Shown here: positions 12,773 to 44,349 of the stretch, piece after piece
Position numbering within the stretch: the first letter of the stretch is position 1
Layout of the letters: every line of letters starts with the position of its first letter
Virus record (IMG/VR): IMGVR_UViG_3300017613_001373
From: an uncultured virus (IMG/VR IMGVR_UViG_3300017613_001373)
Taxonomy: Duplodnaviria; Heunggongvirae; Uroviricota; Caudoviricetes
Strand: one strand, 5' to 3'
Length of the DNA stretch: 54,273 nt
Notes under the pieces: model-generated
The model's input: the letters and a program-made list of their open reading frames with translations, nothing else
Told to the model about the DNA's origin: nothing
The model's database searches: none
Position numbers and translations under genes: made by a program

Positions 12773-13033
12773 ATGGATGCAGAACGTAATAGTATTCAAA
12801 TGTTGGCACGAACATATTTTAGTCATAAACAATGTGATCGTAAGAATACGAATATGTTACAAGAGATGTTGTTCAATGAGAAAGGTCTTAATTGGAGTGA
12901 TGTAGATACTCAATTCAAACGTGGTAATATTGTTACTAAAGACGGTGTTAACAATGAAATCCCACGTATCAAGGATGATCGTCAATGGTGGGAAGATTTG
13001 ATCTTTGGTAATTGTGTATACTGGGAGAAATAA
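12773..13033 (+). CDS. Thg1 (tRNA-His guanylyltransferase) C-terminal domain only; catalytic N-half absent
   Basis: DAERNSIQMLARTYFSHKQ..K....LQEML..EKGLNW......KRG matches the Thg1 C-terminal pattern. Confidence 0.75.
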   Translation: MDAERNSIQMLARTYFSHKQCDRKNTNMLQEMLFNEKGLNWSDVDTQFKRGNIVTKDGVNNEIPRIKDDRQWWEDLIFGNCVYWEK

Positions 13034-13035
13034 TA

Positions 13036-13344
13036 ATGAACACAGCGTTTATAACAGATTTACGAGGAACAATAAATGAACCTAAGAAAATGATTGAGCT
13101 TGAACATTACGAGTTTAATGACTTGGTGAACAAAGTGTTTCCATTTCTGGATTATGAGATTGTTGCAACAGGAGAGTTGAAGAATTATTCAAAATTCACA
13201 TCGGATGGATATGGAGACATAGACATTTGGGGGTATAACAAGTTGTTTGAGGGTGATCCTAACACTCATGTTTTAGTTCAGCTTATGATAAACATGGGTA
13301 TATTACCTGATGGATATGAATTCATAATTAGTGTAAATTACTAA
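13036..13344 (+). CDS. Hypothetical protein
   Basis: GGGAG RBS before ATG 13036. Confidence 0.7.
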   Translation: MNTAFITDLRGTINEPKKMIELEHYEFNDLVNKVFPFLDYEIVATGELKNYSKFTSDGYGDIDIWGYNKLFEGDPNTHVLVQLMINMGILPDGYEFIISVNY

Positions 13345-13372
13345 CACCTTCTGGGATGCGAGTTGGGACGAT

Positions 13373-13660
13373 GTGGTAGAGGTGAAAAGCGATGAAGCCA
13401 TTTCAGCAAAACCTGTTGAAGAAGTGGTATTTGAAGATGACCCGATTCAACTTGTCAAAACTGTGTTTCAGCCTACAGACAAGGGTTGGGATATTTTAGA
13501 TAACATCCCTGACGATGTGGATGTGGTGATTGGTTCTATCATCGCGGCACAAGCGTATATCGGTCATATTGTTCGTATGACACCAGCAGTAGGTTTTGAA
13601 CGTGTTCCTGTGGCTGAAAAGCGTATGCGACCTGATAAGTTCACTGTTTTTGGAAGATAG
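13373..13660 (+). CDS. Hypothetical protein, probably N-terminally truncated
   Basis: Frame open from 13337 without ATG or clear RBS; VIGSIIAAQAY...FERVP. Confidence 0.5.
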   Translation: MVEVKSDEAISAKPVEEVVFEDDPIQLVKTVFQPTDKGWDILDNIPDDVDVVIGSIIAAQAYIGHIVRMTPAVGFERVPVAEKRMRPDKFTVFGR

Positions 13661-13696
13661 TACTAACGTACCGTTGCTAACAAATACAGATTGAGA

Positions 13697-13734
13697 TAAA
13701 CTTCTTTCAAGTCACATTGGAAGAAGTTTTTTTT
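13697..13734 (+). terminator. Terminator hairpin containing a promoter -10 (TAAACT); related copies at 14219, 22331, 32921
   Basis: AAACTTCTTTCAA-GTCACA-TTGGAAGAAGTTT-TTTTT with a -35 17 nt upstream of TAAACT. Confidence 0.75.
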
Positions 13735-13756
13735 ATTTAAGGAGAGATGAAGAACA

Positions 13757-14182
13757 ATGTTAGTTTTATATATCGAACCAAAAGAGGAATATCTACAAAC
13801 TGATTTCTATATGATATTGGGACAAAATGAATGGTTTTACAAGGGTGAATATCCAGAACGGAATAAAACCCCGTCTGAAATTTATGATTATTTTATGCGA
13901 GAATTATCACCATTGGTTAATGAAAAAGAAACTTATCTCATTGTCACAGTATCAGAAGAAATGGTGAATGGTATTGGAGTGTTAATTGAAAGGGGGGTAA
14001 TCGAGCCAAATGTGAGTTTATATCTAGCAAACATTGATAGATGGTGTGGTTATGATAATATGGGATGCTTGATAGATTTTCCATATGGGTATTTTAGACA
14101 GTCGCCATTATGGTCTGGTGATAAAGTATTAGATCATATGGATGAGAATCGGTACAGTGGGGATATTAACATGACAGAATAG
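13757..14182 (+). CDS. Hypothetical protein
   Basis: AAGGAG upstream; class A promoter. Confidence 0.7.
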   Translation: MLVLYIEPKEEYLQTDFYMILGQNEWFYKGEYPERNKTPSEIYDYFMRELSPLVNEKETYLIVTVSEEMVNGIGVLIERGVIEPNVSLYLANIDRWCGYDNMGCLIDFPYGYFRQSPLWSGDKVLDHMDENRYSGDINMTE

Positions 14183-14268
14183 TACCAGCGTACCCTTGTC
14201 AACTAAATAAAACAGTGATAAACTTCTTTCAGATTAACGAAAGGAGTTTTTTTATTTAAGGAGTTATT

Positions 14269-15591
14269 ATGTTTATACCAAACGAAATTAAAGAGTTGGG
14301 CAGGTTGGTTGATGATAAAGGTGGACGCTTGTTTGTTGTTGGTGGTGCGATTCGTGACCACGTTATGGGGATTGTACCAGAAGACTTCGACCTGTTGATG
14401 ACGGGATTGGATAAAGATGTTGCGATCCGTTTAATGAATAACCCTAAAAAAGTTATTGGTAACGCACCTGTTTTTAAATGGCGAGGGATCGATGTAGCAC
14501 TTGGACGACGTGAGATAAATACAGGTGATGGGAAACAAGGATTTGATTTCATCGCTGATCCAAACATTACAATCTTTGAAGACCTGATTCGACGTGACTT
14601 TACAGTAAATGCAATGGCTATAGATGTCGTAACGGGTGAACTTATTGATCCATTTGATGGTCTGTCTGATATTCGTGATAGAATTCTTCGGCCTGTCTCT
14701 CCTGCATTTGTAGAAAGTGATGAGAGAGTGTTGCGTGGAGCTAGTTTTGCCGCACGATTGGAAGGGTTTGTAATGAGTGACAGTTTTTGGGATTTTGCTG
14801 AACAGATGTCACCAGACACCATTGCCCCTGAACAAGTTTTTCGGCATTTTGAAAAAGGCATGAAACTCGGTGTAAAACCGTCAAGATGGATTGAAGTGCT
14901 TGATGAGGCAGGATGGCTTGAACAACTTTTTCCCGAACTTCATGCATTGAAATTCTGTGAGCAAGATTCTGAATGGCATCCTGAGATTTGGGCATTGGAA
15001 CATACCATGCACGTTTTGGATGAATCAGAAGGTATTTTGATGAGACTTGCCGCAATCTGTCACGATTTGGGAAAAATTCATTGTACTGTGATTGTTGATG
15101 GTAAGATAACGAGTCCAAGACATGAAAAACATATTGCACCAACTATTGAATTTCTGGATCATGTGGGGTGTTTCGAGACTGACATTAGAGAAACCGTTAT
15201 TAGTTTGGTTAGAGAGCATATGATTCACTCTAATTTCAAGAATAGTCAGAAACCGTCCAAACGCGCTGTACGGCGATTGTCTCAGCGATTGCGTCCTGCC
15301 ACCATTGAACAGCTATCCGAGTTGGTTAGAGCGGATGTAAGCGGTAGACCACCATTACCTAAACACATGCCTGAAAGCATGATTGACATCTTGGAGATTG
15401 CCAAAAGAGAAGACGTGACAATTAAACCATTCGAGCCGATGATGCAAGGCCGACATCTCATCAAACTGGGAATGAAACCGTCAAAACAATTTGGAATTTG
15501 GTTGAAACAAGCAGAGGAAGCAGAGATAGATGGTGTTTTTGACAATATCGACGATGGGATGGATTTTTTGAGAAGTTTAATTTTTGACTAG
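14269..15591 (+). CDS. cca: Class II tRNA nucleotidyltransferase (CCA-adding/poly(A) polymerase family) with HD domain
   Basis: FVVGGAIRD...EDFDL, DLIRRDFTVNAMA, IDPFDG..DI, ERVLRG..FAAR, Q..EWHPE...EHT, ICHDLGK. Confidence 0.9.
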   Translation: MFIPNEIKELGRLVDDKGGRLFVVGGAIRDHVMGIVPEDFDLLMTGLDKDVAIRLMNNPKKVIGNAPVFKWRGIDVALGRREINTGDGKQGFDFIADPNITIFEDLIRRDFTVNAMAIDVVTGELIDPFDGLSDIRDRILRPVSPAFVESDERVLRGASFAARLEGFVMSDSFWDFAEQMSPDTIAPEQVFRHFEKGMKLGVKPSRWIEVLDEAGWLEQLFPELHALKFCEQDSEWHPEIWALEHTMHVLDESEGILMRLAAICHDLGKIHCTVIVDGKITSPRHEKHIAPTIEFLDHVGCFETDIRETVISLVREHMIHSNFKNSQKPSKRAVRRLSQRLRPATIEQLSELVRADVSGRPPLPKHMPESMIDILEIAKREDVTIKPFEPMMQGRHLIKLGMKPSKQFGIWLKQAEEAEIDGVFDNIDDGMDFLRSLIFD

Positions 15592-15616
15592 AAGATGAAA
15601 GATGTTATAATACAAA

Positions 15617-15682
15617 AAGAGTTGTAGAAACACCTTGTCCTTCTATGTTCATACTAAGAAAGGGATAAGGTGTTTTTATTTT
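15617..15682 (+). ncRNA. Candidate ~65-nt terminated small RNA
   Basis: TTGACT(15584)/TGtTATAAT(15606) promoter, then hairpin AAACACCTTGTCCTT...AGGGATAAGGTGTTT with T tract. Confidence 0.45.
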
Positions 15683-15721
15683 TGATATTAGAATAATTGT
15701 GCTATAATAGGGGGATAAGTT

Positions 15722-16468
15722 ATGAAGCATTTAGTAAGAAATTATGAACAGTTTAACAGGTTTGTCAATGATGTATTACCTGATTTACAGAATGATGAGG
15801 TATACTTCTTGTCAATGTCGGCACGGAAGAAATACTTAACCTTAGAGGAACGTGAAAAATATCAATTAGCGAGGACAGAAATGATGCTTCGCAAGATTGT
15901 TCACAGCAAGGATCAACTTCATCACGCCATGAATGAGTTGTCTGCACAAATTTCAGTACGGACAACTAAGAGTGGTTTGATAATGCCTGAAAAGGCTCTT
16001 GTGTGTTATATCAACGTTAATCCATCTAGTATGATCAAAGCCTTGACAATGTTTAAACGAGATATGAATCACGAACTCGCACAAGTAATGAGTGCATTAA
16101 TGGGTGATGGTCAACCAAATTACGATTCAATTAAGTATTCGACACGGAAATTTATGAATTGTGTGCAGAAATCTAAAGGTACACGACATTGGTTAGATAT
16201 TGATGTTGATTCGTTGGATGTAACCTATCGTAATATGCTGGTTCGTGAATTGTCAGATATTGAAAGTCACACAATTGAGACTCATGGTGGGTATCATGTT
16301 TTAATCAATCGGGAACAATTGAACCAATCAAATATTCAATTACATAAGGTTGTTAAAGATATTGATACACAACTTAAACTGGTTGGTGGGGAATGTATCT
16401 TTAATAAAAACGCGATGATCCCTGTGGCTGGAACGTTACATGCAGGAAAATTGGTGTTATTGAATTAG
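15722..16468 (+). CDS. Hypothetical protein with AEP (primase-polymerase)-like motifs
   Basis: WLDIDVD (DxD), IETHGGYHVLI, PVAGTLH. Confidence 0.55.
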   Translation: MKHLVRNYEQFNRFVNDVLPDLQNDEVYFLSMSARKKYLTLEEREKYQLARTEMMLRKIVHSKDQLHHAMNELSAQISVRTTKSGLIMPEKALVCYINVNPSSMIKALTMFKRDMNHELAQVMSALMGDGQPNYDSIKYSTRKFMNCVQKSKGTRHWLDIDVDSLDVTYRNMLVRELSDIESHTIETHGGYHVLINREQLNQSNIQLHKVVKDIDTQLKLVGGECIFNKNAMIPVAGTLHAGKLVLLN

Positions 16469-16545
16469 TACCAAAGACCTATTGTAAAAAATTACAATAG
16501 GTCTTACACTTGTTTCATACTATTTAATAAAAAGGAGAAATTATT

Positions 16546-17811
16546 ATGACAACAAATCAAGCAATTGTGTGTCGAATCAAAACACGACCACATCCAAAAG
16601 CAGATCGACTACAATTAGGTACAGCAATGGGGTTTCAGGTTGTATTAGGATTAGATGTTGAAGACGGGACATTGGGGGTATTTTTTGACAGCAATCTGCG
16701 TCTCTCTGATGAATTCTGTATCACGAATGACTTATTTCCACGATATGATGAAGATGGTAAGAAAATTGGGGGTGGTTTTTTCAACCCTAAGAACGCTCGG
16801 GTAAAAGCACAAACTTTTCGTGGTGAAAAATCATTTGGATATTGGACTTCGTTGGAGTCTTTAACTTTTGCTGGAGATGTGTCGAAACTACGCGAAGGTG
16901 ATCAATTTGATACTTTTAATGATATTAAAATTTGTGAAAAATACATTGTCCCAGTTAAATCAAATACACAAGGTAAGAAACAGCATAGCAATCGTATTCG
17001 TGGTACTAAAATGATCCCTCGTCATTATGATACTGAACAGTATAAATACAAAAAAGATCGTATCGAAGTGGGCGATTTAATTACTATCACTTTAAAAATG
17101 CATGGTACATCGGGACGTTATGGGTTAGTTATTTTACCGCCGCAAGAACCAACTAACATTTTCTTAAAATTGTGGCATAAATTATATCCACAAGAAGATG
17201 TTTATGGATACATTCATGGGACACGAAATGTTTTGTTAGATGACAATGAGGGTGGTTATTACGGAGACAATGGATTTCGTGACAATGTTGTACGTGATGT
17301 GATTCTCCATCAAGGTGAAACAATTTATTTTGAAATTGTGGGTTGGGTCAATGACGAAAAACCGATTATGAATTCTGTCCCGACCAAAACTGTTGCTGAT
17401 AAGAGTTTTAAGAAACACTATGGTGATACTATGACATTTAAGTATGGTTGCCCTGCGGGGACACAAGCTATGTATGTGTATCGTATTACTCGCAGTACTC
17501 ATGATGGTACAGTTACAGAACTATCGTGGAATCAGGTTGTAAATCGCTGTAATGAACTTGGTATCAATCATGTTCCAGAACTTCGTCAATATGTCTTTGA
17601 TGGTGATTTTGAATCATTAGAGATGTATTTAGATGACGTGCATGAGGGGGAAGACATGATTGATCCTTCACATATCAAAGAAGGTGTTGTGGTTCGGGTT
17701 GATACAAAACAGGGTGAACATTATGCTTTGAAATACAAATCATATCTTTTCTACGTTCTTGAGGGAATTGTCAAAGATCAAGGACTTGTGGATATGGAAG
17801 ACATTGCGTAG
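16546..17811 (+). CDS. RNA ligase (DRB0094/Rnl5-like) with N-terminal OB domain
   Basis: HPKADRLQL N-domain; motif I LKMHGTS; FEIVG; EGVVVR; LKYKS. Confidence 0.85.
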   Translation: MTTNQAIVCRIKTRPHPKADRLQLGTAMGFQVVLGLDVEDGTLGVFFDSNLRLSDEFCITNDLFPRYDEDGKKIGGGFFNPKNARVKAQTFRGEKSFGYWTSLESLTFAGDVSKLREGDQFDTFNDIKICEKYIVPVKSNTQGKKQHSNRIRGTKMIPRHYDTEQYKYKKDRIEVGDLITITLKMHGTSGRYGLVILPPQEPTNIFLKLWHKLYPQEDVYGYIHGTRNVLLDDNEGGYYGDNGFRDNVVRDVILHQGETIYFEIVGWVNDEKPIMNSVPTKTVADKSFKKHYGDTMTFKYGCPAGTQAMYVYRITRSTHDGTVTELSWNQVVNRCNELGINHVPELRQYVFDGDFESLEMYLDDVHEGEDMIDPSHIKEGVVVRVDTKQGEHYALKYKSYLFYVLEGIVKDQGLVDMEDIA

Positions 17812-25809: not shown

Positions 25810-26350
25810 ATGATTAGATACAAACAACTTGTAATAAAAATAATAAAAATTTGACCTAATCCGAATAATAATCGGATTATGGCCTCATGTTGCCAGACCG
25901 ATTTATATAAGGTGTAAAAACCAAGCCGAGTGTAAAAACTCAATAGGTTCTGTAAACTGCAAATCAACCAAGCCATAAAACATGAGATAAAGCAGGTTAA
26001 AAGCGTCGCCTAAGACTATCAAACAGGTTATAGCGATGTGATAACCCAGTATCCTCACGAATTTCCCTGAGAAACCGCCCGTCCTAGTGAAAGTAAAATT
26101 TCAGGTGGAGTATGGAAACTGAATGTACAATAGTGGCTATTTTTCCGTGTAAGAACGGGTTGACAATGAATATAGTCGCGTATTCAGTGGTGATAAAGCT
26201 AGACCGTGACACCAAACCATTCCATAAATTGTGTTTTCAACCCCAATTCAACGACGAATTTATACAAACGTTAATGAATCACACATTTCATCCTTCCAAT
26301 AATAATTATATTATCAGATTATTATTGTGATGGGTGGAGTGTGTCTTTTT
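25810..26350 (+). ncRNA. Candidate large structured RNA preceded by a 14-codon leaderless ORF
   Basis: TTGACA(25776)/TATACT(25798); many complementary stems; terminal hairpin 26281-26344 plus T tract; no credible long ORF. Confidence 0.55.
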
Positions 26351-40354: not shown

Positions 40355-40693
40355 ATGGGATATTGTACAGATTACACATTGCAATATAAGGAATACGATC
40401 ACAATCCATATCGGGCAAATATTTATTCGCAATTGCACAGTGCTTTTCGGAAATTGGAATCAGGATATGAACTTCAACAACTAGTCGAGTATGGCGAATT
40501 GATTGATGTGAAATGGTATGATCATGTAGAACATATGAAGATTATTAGTGGTCAGTTCCCAAAAGTTCTGTTCACACTAAGTAAAATGGGTCAAGATGGT
40601 GAACAATCACGGGTATATTTTGAAAACGGTAAGGCACACGCAGTAGAATCAATTGTGACATTCCCACCGTTTGATAGAGCTAAATTGAAATAA
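40355..40693 (+). CDS. Phage hypothetical protein
   Basis: MGYCTDYTL...KWYDH..HM..IS.QFP..LF.L; GGAAGG RBS. Confidence 0.75.
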   Translation: MGYCTDYTLQYKEYDHNPYRANIYSQLHSAFRKLESGYELQQLVEYGELIDVKWYDHVEHMKIISGQFPKVLFTLSKMGQDGEQSRVYFENGKAHAVESIVTFPPFDRAKLK

Positions 40694-40872
40694 TTAGTAC
40701 AAAAGTACTATGATAATACTCTTGACAAGTAAAAACAGATAGGGTATTATCATAGTCATAGAGAGATAGAATTAAAAAGAAAGCAATACCGCGCCTACAT
40801 TTTCCGAGCAAATTAGCTTGACCGCTGATATTGTACGAAAATGAGATTAAGTGGGAACAAGAATTAACTTGT

Positions 40873-41036
40873 GGGGGTGTAGCTCAATTGGCAGAGCATC
40901 ACCATGAATATTTCCTTATTATAATCGGAGTGACTACCAATTATTATAAGGACATTCAATCTAGTCAATTGGATGTTAGGGGATTGCCCTAGATATGGAT
41001 TAGTGAAGGTTGTTGGTTCGAGTCCTTCCATCCCCA
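40873..41036 (+). ncRNA. tRNA-like RNA with a 100-nt structured insert in place of the anticodon loop
   Basis: Acceptor GGGGGTG/CATCCCC+A; D-arm GCTC-AATTGGCA-GAGC; TCAC/GTGA stem; T-arm GTTGG-TTCGAGT-CCTTC. Confidence 0.75.
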
Positions 41037-41443
41037 GCACTTAACGTAGATTAGAAATAATTGAACAACGAGGCGACTTTGCAAAAAACCTAACCCAACT
41101 AGGAATCATGTATTCTTAACTGTCCAAAGTCAGTCAAAATGGGGATGGGGAATAAACAATCGAACACGAGTGACAGAGCGTATGCCGCACTTCTCAATCA
41201 GGATGTTCAGGGGATGAGCGTAACCCCTATTAGTACTAATGTACCATTGTCTAATAAAAAGAGTGATGATATACTATTTTTATTGAACGGGACAATAAAA
41301 ACTCAGTGATAGAGTTTTTAACAGAATTTTATCACTGGGCTTTTATTCACTAAAGAAGTTGTGGCGGCGATTCGAGCGCAACTTGACCTAAAAAAGCATG
41401 ACGGTAAGGGACACTCAGCCAAGACGCTAAACGGTTTGGATAG

Positions 41444-41518
41444 TCAGATATAGTTCAATTGGCAGAACATGGTGGGTACGTCCTATCAAGGTTGTTGGTT
41501 CAAATCCTTCTATCTGAT
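41444..41518 (+). ncRNA. Non-canonical tRNA-like RNA (7-bp anticodon stem, 5-nt loop TACGT)
   Basis: Acceptor TCAGATA/TATCTGA+T; D-arm GTTC-AATTGGCA-GAAC; TGGTGGG-TACGT-CCTATCA; T-arm GTTGG-TTCAAAT-CCTTC; CCA not encoded. Confidence 0.75.
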
Positions 41519-41542
41519 AAGTAAAGCTATTAAATCGAATCT

Positions 41543-41579
41543 GGTAGGTATGTTGGAAAGCATACCTACCTATATTTTT
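41543..41579 (+). terminator. Intrinsic terminator after the second tRNA-like RNA
   Basis: GGTAGGTATG-TTGGAAAG-CATACCTACC-TATATTTTT. Confidence 0.7.
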
Positions 41580-41599
41580 ATCTTAAATGGGGTTGTAAA

Positions 41600-41815
41600 A
41601 TGTTCAAAGATATACCAACACAAGCGGCATGGGACAAGATGGATCAAATTATTGCTACAAATCCTGTGCATAATCTGATTAAAAAAGAATGGGGTTATAT
41701 CATTGATTGGAATGATGGTATTTATGGTATTGTTCAGTTTTTCATGTATTATGATGCTGAAACAAGTGAAGTAAAATCAGCGGTATTAAACACTCGTAAC
41801 CGCTGGAAGGTGTGA
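41600..41815 (+). CDS. Hypothetical protein
   Basis: GGGG RBS. Confidence 0.6.
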   Translation: MFKDIPTQAAWDKMDQIIATNPVHNLIKKEWGYIIDWNDGIYGIVQFFMYYDAETSEVKSAVLNTRNRWKV

Positions 41816-41863: not shown

Positions 41864-42346
41864 ATGAAGAAAATAGGTTTTGGACGTTTTTCAGACATTT
41901 ATCACAATGGCGATCATGTTATCGCTATTGTAATTGAACAAGATTATACAAAACAGGCACTATCTCAAGTGGTCAAGATGCCCCATGTGCCAGATGTTTC
42001 AAAACTAGCTGAAAACAAATTCAAAATGCCTCTATATCGCTCTCTAAGCGACGCAAACAAGCCAATGGTAGATTTTCTCATAACATCATGGCAAAACTTC
42101 GCTAACCGCAACCCAGTACCATTAGACGGCAACCCTGTAAATTTTTACAATCGTGTTATTGAATATTTGCAATATATCAAGAATATCATAGATGTGAGTT
42201 TATATAACGCTCTTGAGATAATTGTCGAAACCATGAAAAACTTTACAATGAAAATCAATATGGATTTTCATCTGGACAATTTTATGGAAGATGATGATGG
42301 CGATATTATTTTACTGGATGTGATATGGTCGCCAAGTGTAAAGTAG
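41864..42346 (+). CDS. Minimal protein-kinase-like protein
   Basis: Gly loop IGFGRFSDIY, PHVP, KMPLY hinge, catalytic loop MDFHLDNFM, IILLD. Confidence 0.7.
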   Translation: MKKIGFGRFSDIYHNGDHVIAIVIEQDYTKQALSQVVKMPHVPDVSKLAENKFKMPLYRSLSDANKPMVDFLITSWQNFANRNPVPLDGNPVNFYNRVIEYLQYIKNIIDVSLYNALEIIVETMKNFTMKINMDFHLDNFMEDDDGDIILLDVIWSPSVK

Positions 42347-43971: not shown

Positions 43972-44349
43972 ATGTACGAACCTGATAAAATCCTCTGTGA
44001 GCAATTAATTGATTATTTTTACAACGGTAATTTTCGATTATCAGAAAATGAAAGTGTGGTGATTTTCAAAAATGTTTCACGTTTTCGATTGTGTCCTCAT
44101 TTTGCAAAAACAAATCTTGTTGCATTGGTAGATGTTGCAACAGATAAAGAAGTGAGAGGCGAAGGAATTGGATCAAGTATGCTTGAGGCAATTTGTGAGT
44201 TTTTAGATCATGCAAAATTAAAATGCTTAGTGCATCCTGAATCATACGGAGAGAATAAAAACCAGCGGAAATTAAGAGCATGGTACAAACAACATGGTTT
44301 TAAGCCTGTAACGGGTCAATCTACAATGATTCGTCAGCCACAAGTGTAA
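43972..44349 (+). CDS. GNAT family acetyltransferase
   Basis: VRGEGIGSSML (R-G-x-G acetyl-CoA motif), LRAWYKQHGF. Confidence 0.85.
   Translation: MYEPDKILCEQLIDYFYNGNFRLSENESVVIFKNVSRFRLCPHFAKTNLVALVDVATDKEVRGEGIGSSMLEAICEFLDHAKLKCLVHPESYGENKNQRKLRAWYKQHGFKPVTGQSTMIRQPQV

What the first reader, a model, noticed from the sequence alone, without database searches (positions are those of the whole stretch)
41444..41518. Second tRNA mimic shares a U-U/U-U T-stem, suggesting a family of non-translating tRNA-like RNAs
Seen: the acceptor stem differs completely from the first RNA yet pairs perfectly, and both RNAs keep D-loop AATTGGCA and AGGTT-GTTGG-TTCRART-CCTTC. This places U-U mismatches at pairs 50-64 and 51-63 in both. 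The anticodon arm is 19 nt (7-bp stem, 5-nt loop). Established: T-stem pairs 49-65, 50-64 and 51-63 set EF-Tu affinity, and non-proteinogenic tRNAs weaken them. AAGG in the variable region can also pair with CCTT, offering an alternative fold. Inference: the RNAs are selected to look like tRNA elbows while avoiding EF-Tu and decoding, so they may be decoys or ligands rather than decayed tRNAs.
Basis: partly seen in the sequence, partly recalled or inferred. Interest (0 to 1): 0.75.

Follow-up and report, generated by a model that had tools for sequence, protein, structure and literature searches.

The report
Phage tRNA look-alike with initiator-type arm
A large uncultured phage carries a small RNA gene that keeps the whole tRNA shape but has no usable codon-reading loop; its odd-looking arm is the ordinary arm of many bacterial start-codon tRNAs, which may help keep such look-alikes out of protein synthesis.

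Summary
The RNA is real: a full tRNA body at 41444-41518 with a 19-nt anticodon arm and U-U at 50-64 and 51-63, as in a second tRNA-shaped gene at 40873-41036. The U-U/U-U T-stem is no family badge. It is the normal T-arm of many cellular initiator tRNAs: 106 of 125 matches in cell genomes are whole initiator-type tRNA-Met, none an elongator. Most odd-arm phage tRNA look-alikes have paired T-stems (0 of 71). Yet outside initiators the motif is enriched in bodies with a broken anticodon arm (11 odd to 6 canonical, against 10 to 43 for the paired version; post hoc p 0.0007-0.03), and 16 other double mismatches gave no tRNA body. The gene ends an RNA-only stretch: promoter, first look-alike, divergent twister ribozyme, spacer, this RNA, terminator. 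Best reading (0.5): a non-decoding tRNA-shaped processing handle and stable small RNA with an initiator-type, probably EF-Tu-avoiding arm. No homologous locus or expression data were found. This scan has noted similar mimic-plus-twister units on other phage DNA.

The parts
40722..40750 (+). Sigma-70-type promoter (11 of 12), bracketed by a 16-nt inverted repeat 40707-40722/40741-40756
   Evidence: consensus match only
40798..40843 (+). Hairpin in the ~115-nt leader before the first RNA
   Evidence: z -2.64 for 40755-40872
40873..41036 (+). RNA1: tRNA body with the same D-loop and U-U/U-U T-stem (41013/41027, 41014/41026); about 95 nt inserted in the anticodon arm
   Evidence: Rfam tRNA 41.0 bits; module match
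40903..40997 (+). RNA1 insert: three hairpins; loops 40929-40936 and 40961-40967 are complementary over 6 bases (possible kissing loop)
   Evidence: fold; chance of such loop complementarity about 0.0025 (computed after noticing it)
41087..41152 (+). Divergent type-P1 twister-like ribozyme; predicted cut at 41091/41092, 55 nt after RNA1
   Evidence: RF03160 41.4 bits, E 9e-6 in the whole window, below the 67.2 cut-off; P4 and both pseudoknots show compensatory changes against the consensus in the alignment (read by eye; pseudoknot and cut positions recalled); cleavage untested
41153..41443 (+). Non-coding spacer with a 17-bp terminator-like hairpin (41302-41339) and a weak promoter match (41247-41275); no Rfam family
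41444..41518 (+). RNA2 (the finding): complete tRNA body, U1-A72, A15-U48 Levitt pair, C20, discriminator U, no encoded CCA
41470..41488 (+). 19-nt anticodon arm of RNA2: 7 pairs and 5-nt loop UACGU; no 7-nt loop with U33 and purine 37
   Evidence: arm pairs have probability 0.84-1.0
41489..41510 (+). Variable region and initiator-type T-arm with U-U at 50-64 (41495/41509) and 51-63 (41496/41508)
41543..41580 (+). Intrinsic-terminator-like hairpin and T-rich tail, 25 nt after RNA2
14269..15591 (+). Phage CCA-adding enzyme, a possible source of CCA ends for the two RNAs (link inferred)

Best explanation
RNA2 is a transcribed, non-decoding tRNA-shaped RNA at the end of an RNA-only stretch of a large phage. 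Shown: the acceptor stem, D-arm, T-loop and elbow nucleotides are intact while the anticodon arm is not decodable; the T-stem is the one many bacteria use on initiator tRNA; a twister-like ribozyme and a terminator frame the unit. Inferred: host RNase P and 3' trimming enzymes, with the phage CCA enzyme, read the intact body and cut it out, so it works as a processing handle (fixing the 3' end of the RNA upstream, as the twister fixes a 5' end) and is left as a stable small RNA; the U-U/U-U stem is the one double mismatch the T-arm tolerates and, as in initiators, lowers capture by EF-Tu. The motif is a reusable part picked up several times, not the mark of one family.
For: Intact body and elbow. 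Acceptor and D stems covary among 13 U-U/U-U RNAs (0 of 500 shuffles; expected of any set of tRNAs). Cell genomes: 106 of 125 matches whole initiator-type tRNA-Met, 18 of the other 19 initiator 3' pieces by eye, no elongator; in 5 such genomes all 6 distinct initiator-type genes printed have it and all 4 elongator-type CAU genes have paired stems. Initiator T-stems minimise EF-Tu binding (PMC3239215 section 11). Enrichment in odd-arm bodies. 16 A/C double mismatches: 11 loci, none a tRNA body. Promoter, twister, terminator and no credible ORF between 40693 and 41600. L293 has the same D-loop and T-module with a GAAA-capped 16-nt arm in a tRNA cluster.
Against: No homologous locus, so conservation of this arm, of the gene order and of the spacer is untested. 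No expression or cleavage data. A terminator-like hairpin at 41302-41339 may cut RNA2 off from the twister transcript. Six canonical-looking elongator genes carry the same T-stem, so it need not block EF-Tu; U-U pairs are not in the measured table. None of 5 phage genomes with a U-U/U-U gene has a twister (whose control rang nowhere). The enrichment is post hoc, small, pools two collections, and also fits mere relaxation of EF-Tu selection. The two window copies may share the arm by duplication.
Confidence: 0.5

Rival explanations
1. Decoy or ligand: the released RNA is itself the product and soaks up a host protein that reads tRNA shape (an anticodon nuclease, an uncharged-tRNA or elbow sensor), staying free because EF-Tu ignores it.
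For: Own terminator and possibly own promoter; tRNA-repair enzymes in the window (RNA ligase, CCA enzyme, Thg1 fragment), which PMC7824862 ties to host attacks on tRNA (passages); RNA1 carries a folded domain where the anticodon should be; ACG is displayed in the loop.
Against: No partner identified; no Ro60/TROVE among 115 window proteins or in 5 of 5 phage genomes with such genes; arms of the U-U/U-U look-alikes share no sequence, which argues against one common target at the anticodon.
Confidence: 0.2
2. Relaxed or dying tRNA gene: a former tRNA whose anticodon arm gained two bases; the T-stem came from an initiator-like ancestor or from RNA1 and the RNA no longer does anything.
For: No homolog found; odd-arm bodies are common in phage tRNA clusters (10 of 53 in the control); low Rfam score.
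Against: All 7 acceptor, 4 D-stem and 7 arm pairs hold, with Levitt pair A15-U48 and T-loop intact; random double mismatches are not seen in tRNA bodies; the gene is framed by promoter, ribozyme and terminator.
Confidence: 0.15
3. Atypical decoder: a tRNA-Arg(ACG)-like or frameshifting tRNA with an enlarged loop that does enter the ribosome.
For: ARAGORN calls tRNA-Arg(ACG); CGT is the commonest Arg codon in 10 long ORFs (49 of 135); canonical-looking elongators with this T-stem exist.
Against: No 7-nt loop, no purine 3' of ACG, C at 20 and U at 73 (A20 and A/G73 are bacterial Arg identity elements, recalled).
Confidence: 0.1
4. Charged, non-ribosomal aminoacyl donor, like staphylococcal tRNA-Gly.
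For: Weak EF-Tu binding is the hallmark of such donors (PMC3239215 section 12); a GNAT protein lies at 43972-44349.
Against: No recognisable identity elements; acceptor ends differ between the two RNAs; GNAT link is only proximity (2.5 kb).
Confidence: 0.05

Closest known systems
Bacterial initiator tRNA-fMet (Bacillota, Bacteroidota, Campylobacterota, Desulfobacterota versions)
   Same: Identical T-arm with U-U at 50-64 and 51-63, including the AAGG/CCTT alternative pairing.
   Different: RNA2 has a paired 1-72, pyrimidine-11/purine-24, A15-U48 instead of G15-C48, and no CAU loop.
Phage T4 RNAC and RNAD
   Same: Small RNAs from a phage tRNA region with unknown role (PMC3014915, one passage).
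   Different: No sequence comparison was made; their tRNA-like ends are recalled, not checked here.
Bacillus cereus tRNA-Other and staphylococcal non-proteinogenic tRNA-Gly
   Same: tRNA-shaped RNAs working outside translation; poor charging or polysome exclusion (PMC3399842 passages), weak EF-Tu binding (PMC3239215 section 12).
   Different: Cellular; they keep a readable anticodon; neither is reported in the passages read to use a U-U/U-U stem.
YrlA-type bacterial and phage Y RNAs (RF02553)
   Same: Mimic D-arm, T-arm and acceptor stem; some are cut by RNase P and get CCA (PMC4201824 passages).
   Different: YrlA is permuted and lies beside Ro60; here the order is normal, with no Rfam YrlA hit, no Ro-binding motif and no TROVE gene.
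Theta ribozyme-tRNA pairs of gut phages
   Same: Self-cleaving ribozyme downstream of a phage tRNA gene (PMC10879173 passages).
   Different: HDV-like and cutting within 5 nt of the tRNA end; here a twister type, predicted to cut 55 nt after RNA1.

Membership tests
Canonical elongator tRNA (RF00005) | 7-bp acceptor, D-arm, T-loop and elbow nucleotides | tested here: met
Canonical elongator tRNA (RF00005) | 5-bp anticodon stem, 7-nt loop, U33, purine 37 | tested here: not met
   19-nt arm, 5- or 9-nt loop
Canonical elongator tRNA (RF00005) | Aminoacylation, EF-Tu binding, decoding | not testable with these tools
   needs bench work
Initiator tRNA-fMet | Weak-EF-Tu T-stem of the U-U/U-U type | tested here: met
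Initiator tRNA-fMet | 1-72 mismatch, three G-C pairs at 29-31/39-41, CAU anticodon | tested here: not met
   U1-A72 paired, no CAU loop; features as listed in PMC11231383 passages
YrlA/Y RNA | Permuted T-acceptor-D order, GNCGAAN0-1G motif, Ro60 gene nearby | tested here: not met
   the genome is only partly seen, so a distant Ro60 gene is not excluded
Intron- or insert-bearing phage tRNA genes | Removing an insert restores a normal anticodon arm | tested here: not met
   RNA2 has no insert; for RNA1 the best removal leaves U37 and a Ser anticodon without a long variable arm (read; parser class 'odd')
Proposed 'U-U/U-U family' of non-translating RNAs | Motif confined to, and shared by, non-decoding look-alikes | tested here: not met
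   found on initiators and 6 canonical-looking genes; absent from 24, 22 and 71 odd-arm bodies
Proposed 'U-U/U-U family' of non-translating RNAs | Motif enriched in anticodon-defective bodies | tested here: met
   11:6 against 10:43, p 0.0007; conservative 8:9, p 0.029; post hoc
Twister ribozyme type P1 (RF03160), element at 41087-41152 | P1/P2/P4, two pseudoknots, conserved L1 and L4 | tested here: inconclusive
   E 9e-6 but 41.4 bits against cut-off 67.2; compensatory changes seen; one conserved U before P2' is A

The most novel reading that the evidence does not exclude
The initiator tRNA's U-U/U-U T-stem is a portable 'EF-Tu off' part that phages and some small-genome cells have recruited again and again into anticodon-less tRNA look-alikes, which are released by ribozyme and RNase P cuts and act as stable decoys or ligands for tRNA-reading host defence proteins.
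Probability: 0.2. Interest if true: 0.75.

Novelty: new variant of a known kind. Interest (0 to 1): 0.45.

Why it matters
Large phages carry many tRNA-shaped genes that annotation tools mislabel (here as tRNA-Arg) or miss. This case gives a testable design rule: an intact elbow for processing enzymes, a dead anticodon arm, and an initiator-type T-stem that may keep EF-Tu away. It also points to a simple unmeasured number, the EF-Tu cost of tandem U-U at 50-64/51-63, which bears on initiator/elongator discrimination in many gut bacteria and on tRNA engineering. It corrects the idea that this mismatch is exotic or a sign of decay.

Tried and rejected
Exact 22-nt module in viral contigs: 0 hits. 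blastn of 40700-41600 against phage records: only short matches to ordinary tRNAs. Neighbour protein 41864-42346: no match in phage records, one weak viral locus without tRNAs; sliding clamp no match; CCA enzyme best hits about 30-34%: no close relative, host unknown. No whole genome is held. Sequencing runs: none was listed, no RNA holder listed. Alternative AAGG/CCTT fold as a switch: not distinguished by energy and shared with cellular initiators. Editing to restore the stem: unnecessary, cells use the stem as is. Y RNA reading: rejected. Group I or bulge-helix-bulge intron in RNA1: no Rfam intron hit, no clean motif by eye. First parser left 62 of 101 distinct control sequences unclassified and was replaced (still 22 unclassified and 16 with only a 3' half called; these rows were left out of the 10:43 count). 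Paper searches (listings only) showed no title on a U-U/U-U T-stem or on this RNA; one search returned unrelated papers; supplements of PMC3239215 could not be read and may list such stems.

Full report
Setting. The window is part of a large uncultured phage: dense small ORFs, a clamp and clamp loader, IMP dehydrogenase-like protein, CCA-adding enzyme, RNA ligase and a Thg1 fragment. No close relative was found and no whole genome is held. Only two tRNA-family hits exist in the 54 kb: 40873-41036 (RNA1) and 41444-41518 (RNA2, the finding).

Observation. RNA2 has a 7-of-7 acceptor stem, a 4-of-4 D-stem, the D-loop AATTGGCA, a 19-nt anticodon arm, a 5-nt variable region and a T-stem with U-U at 50-64 and 51-63. 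The shared 22-nt module occurs twice, 0 expected. Elbow and core nucleotides are in place: U8, A14, A15 with U48, G18, G19, G46, the T-loop (numbering and contacts from established tRNA structure, recalled). The arm gives a 5-nt or 9-nt loop with no purine after ACG; C20 and U73 do not fit bacterial Arg identity (recalled), so ARAGORN's tRNA-Arg call is doubtful. The acceptor stems of the two RNAs share 2 of 7 pairs, so 'completely different' overstates slightly.

Surroundings. Between ORFs ending at 40693 and starting at 41600 lie a strong sigma-70 match (40722-40750), RNA1, a twister-P1-like element (41087-41152; E 9e-6, 41.4 bits, under the 67.2 cut-off), a spacer with a long hairpin and a weak promoter match, RNA2, and a terminator 25 nt downstream. 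In the alignment the twister's P4 and both pseudoknots differ from the consensus by compensatory changes (read by eye; pseudoknot positions recalled). RNA1 carries about 95 extra bases folded as three hairpins, two with complementary loops.

What the T-stem is. In 5 of those genomes all 6 distinct initiator-type genes printed carry U-U/U-U and the 4 elongator-type CAU genes have paired stems (genomes chosen for having a hit). So this is a normal, working initiator T-arm. PMC3239215 (passages and sections 10-12) states that pairs 49-65, 50-64 and 51-63 set EF-Tu affinity and that initiator T-stems minimise it, but its table has no U-U value. In viral contigs 33 loci match: 20 tRNA-Met(CAU) by ARAGORN, 5 other plain calls, 3 with inserts, 5 uncalled.

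Is it a family mark? No. Phage tRNA bodies with enlarged arms collected without regard to the T-stem have paired stems: 23 of 24 single genes among 80 loci examined of 122 found; 0 of 22 distinct 19-nt-arm genes have U-U/U-U; 0 of 71 odd or insert-bearing and 0 of 313 canonical neighbours do. In 5 phage genomes with such a gene it occurs once each (4 insert-bearing, 1 canonical Ile) beside 73 canonical and 15 odd genes with paired stems. Six canonical-looking elongator genes carry it. Carriers include phage loci, a cellular locus between uvrD and a sigma-70 gene (L286) and a mitochondrial tRNA-His (L278).

Is it more than chance among look-alikes? Yes, moderately. The U48 version gave 25 metagenome loci: 5 initiators, 3 canonical, 7 odd-arm bodies, 1 permuted gene, and 9 others by the parser. 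L293 is the nearest look-alike: same D-loop and module, arm of 6 pairs capped by GAAA. This is post hoc and mixes collections. A decay control, 16 A/C double mismatches at the same positions, gave 11 loci and no tRNA body by eye. So U-U/U-U is a specific tolerated motif, used by initiators and over-represented where decoding is lost. That fits selection against EF-Tu capture and equally relaxation once EF-Tu is not needed.

How it most likely works. Shown: intact body, dead anticodon arm, initiator-type T-stem, RNA-only unit with ribozyme and terminator. Inferred: host RNase P and 3' nucleases cut the body out, the phage enzyme adds CCA, the cut defines the end of the upstream RNA, and the released RNA stays uncharged or unbound by EF-Tu (0.5). 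The punctuation idea came from earlier notes of this scan on other phages and was not tested by any cleavage data. Rivals: decoy or ligand (0.2), dying gene (0.15), atypical decoder (0.1), aminoacyl donor (0.05).

Comparison with the known. It works like tRNA mimics outside translation: T4 RNAC/RNAD (PMC3014915, one passage), tRNA-Other (PMC3399842, passages), Y RNAs (PMC4201824, passages), and recalls theta ribozyme-tRNA pairs (PMC10879173, passages). It fails membership of canonical tRNA, initiator tRNA and YrlA. PMC11231383, PMC7824862, PMC8007984 and bioRxiv 10.64898/2026.07.01.735769 were seen as passages only. Ten searches (listings only) showed no paper on this T-stem motif in look-alikes; the library lacks most subscription papers and the supplements of PMC3239215 were unreadable.

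Verdict. Observation confirmed; interpretation partly supported. New variant of a known kind; interest 0.45. The boldest open reading, a portable EF-Tu-off stem on decoy RNAs, has probability 0.2 and would deserve 0.75.

Noticed in passing
L284, L365, L369, L424; also L484 and L485 (G003): Apparently circularly permuted phage tRNA genes: the 3' half (anticodon loop, T-arm, acceptor strand) lies upstream of the 5' half, with an ACAGCAA motif before the 3' half. Searches listed no paper on permuted tRNA genes in phages. Potentially more surprising than the finding itself.
   Followed up: partly
L036, L053, L060, L061, L066, L079, L087, L090, L111, L115: Phage tRNA genes with 30-75-nt inserts near positions 28-30 of the anticodon stem; leaving the insert out restores a 5-bp stem and 7-nt loop (Thr, Phe, Asn, Arg, Lys, Ile, Val, Ser). 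Inserts carry ACAGCAA or GAGTTACTTC motifs. Possible unknown intron type; splicing not tested.
   Followed up: partly
window 41087-41152: Divergent twister-P1-like ribozyme below the Rfam cut-off with compensatory changes.
   Followed up: partly
window 40903-40997: RNA1 insert: three hairpins, two with 6-base complementary loops (possible kissing loop).
   Followed up: partly
window 26060-26228: EGFOA RNA hit above the cut-off (42.9 bits, with an insertion) in a large intergenic region behind two sigma-70 matches; family members form oligomers in a 2026 preprint (passages).
   Followed up: no
window 12773-17811: RNA repair genes: Thg1 fragment (12773-13033), CCA-adding enzyme (14269-15591), RNA ligase (16546-17811).
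   Followed up: no
window 40707-40756: 16-nt inverted repeat (94%) bracketing the promoter, operator-like.
   Followed up: no
L294, L296, L297: tRNA bodies with about 110-nt D-loop inserts, a 6-nt anticodon loop and the U-U/U-U stem.
   Followed up: no
L304, L306, L307 and relatives: A 19-nt-arm tRNA look-alike with paired T-stem recurs in 27 of 46 viral loci with compensatory acceptor changes.
   Followed up: no
L022, L291, L299: G3-U70 (Ala-type) bodies with U37 or a 6-nt loop and the U-U/U-U stem.
   Followed up: no
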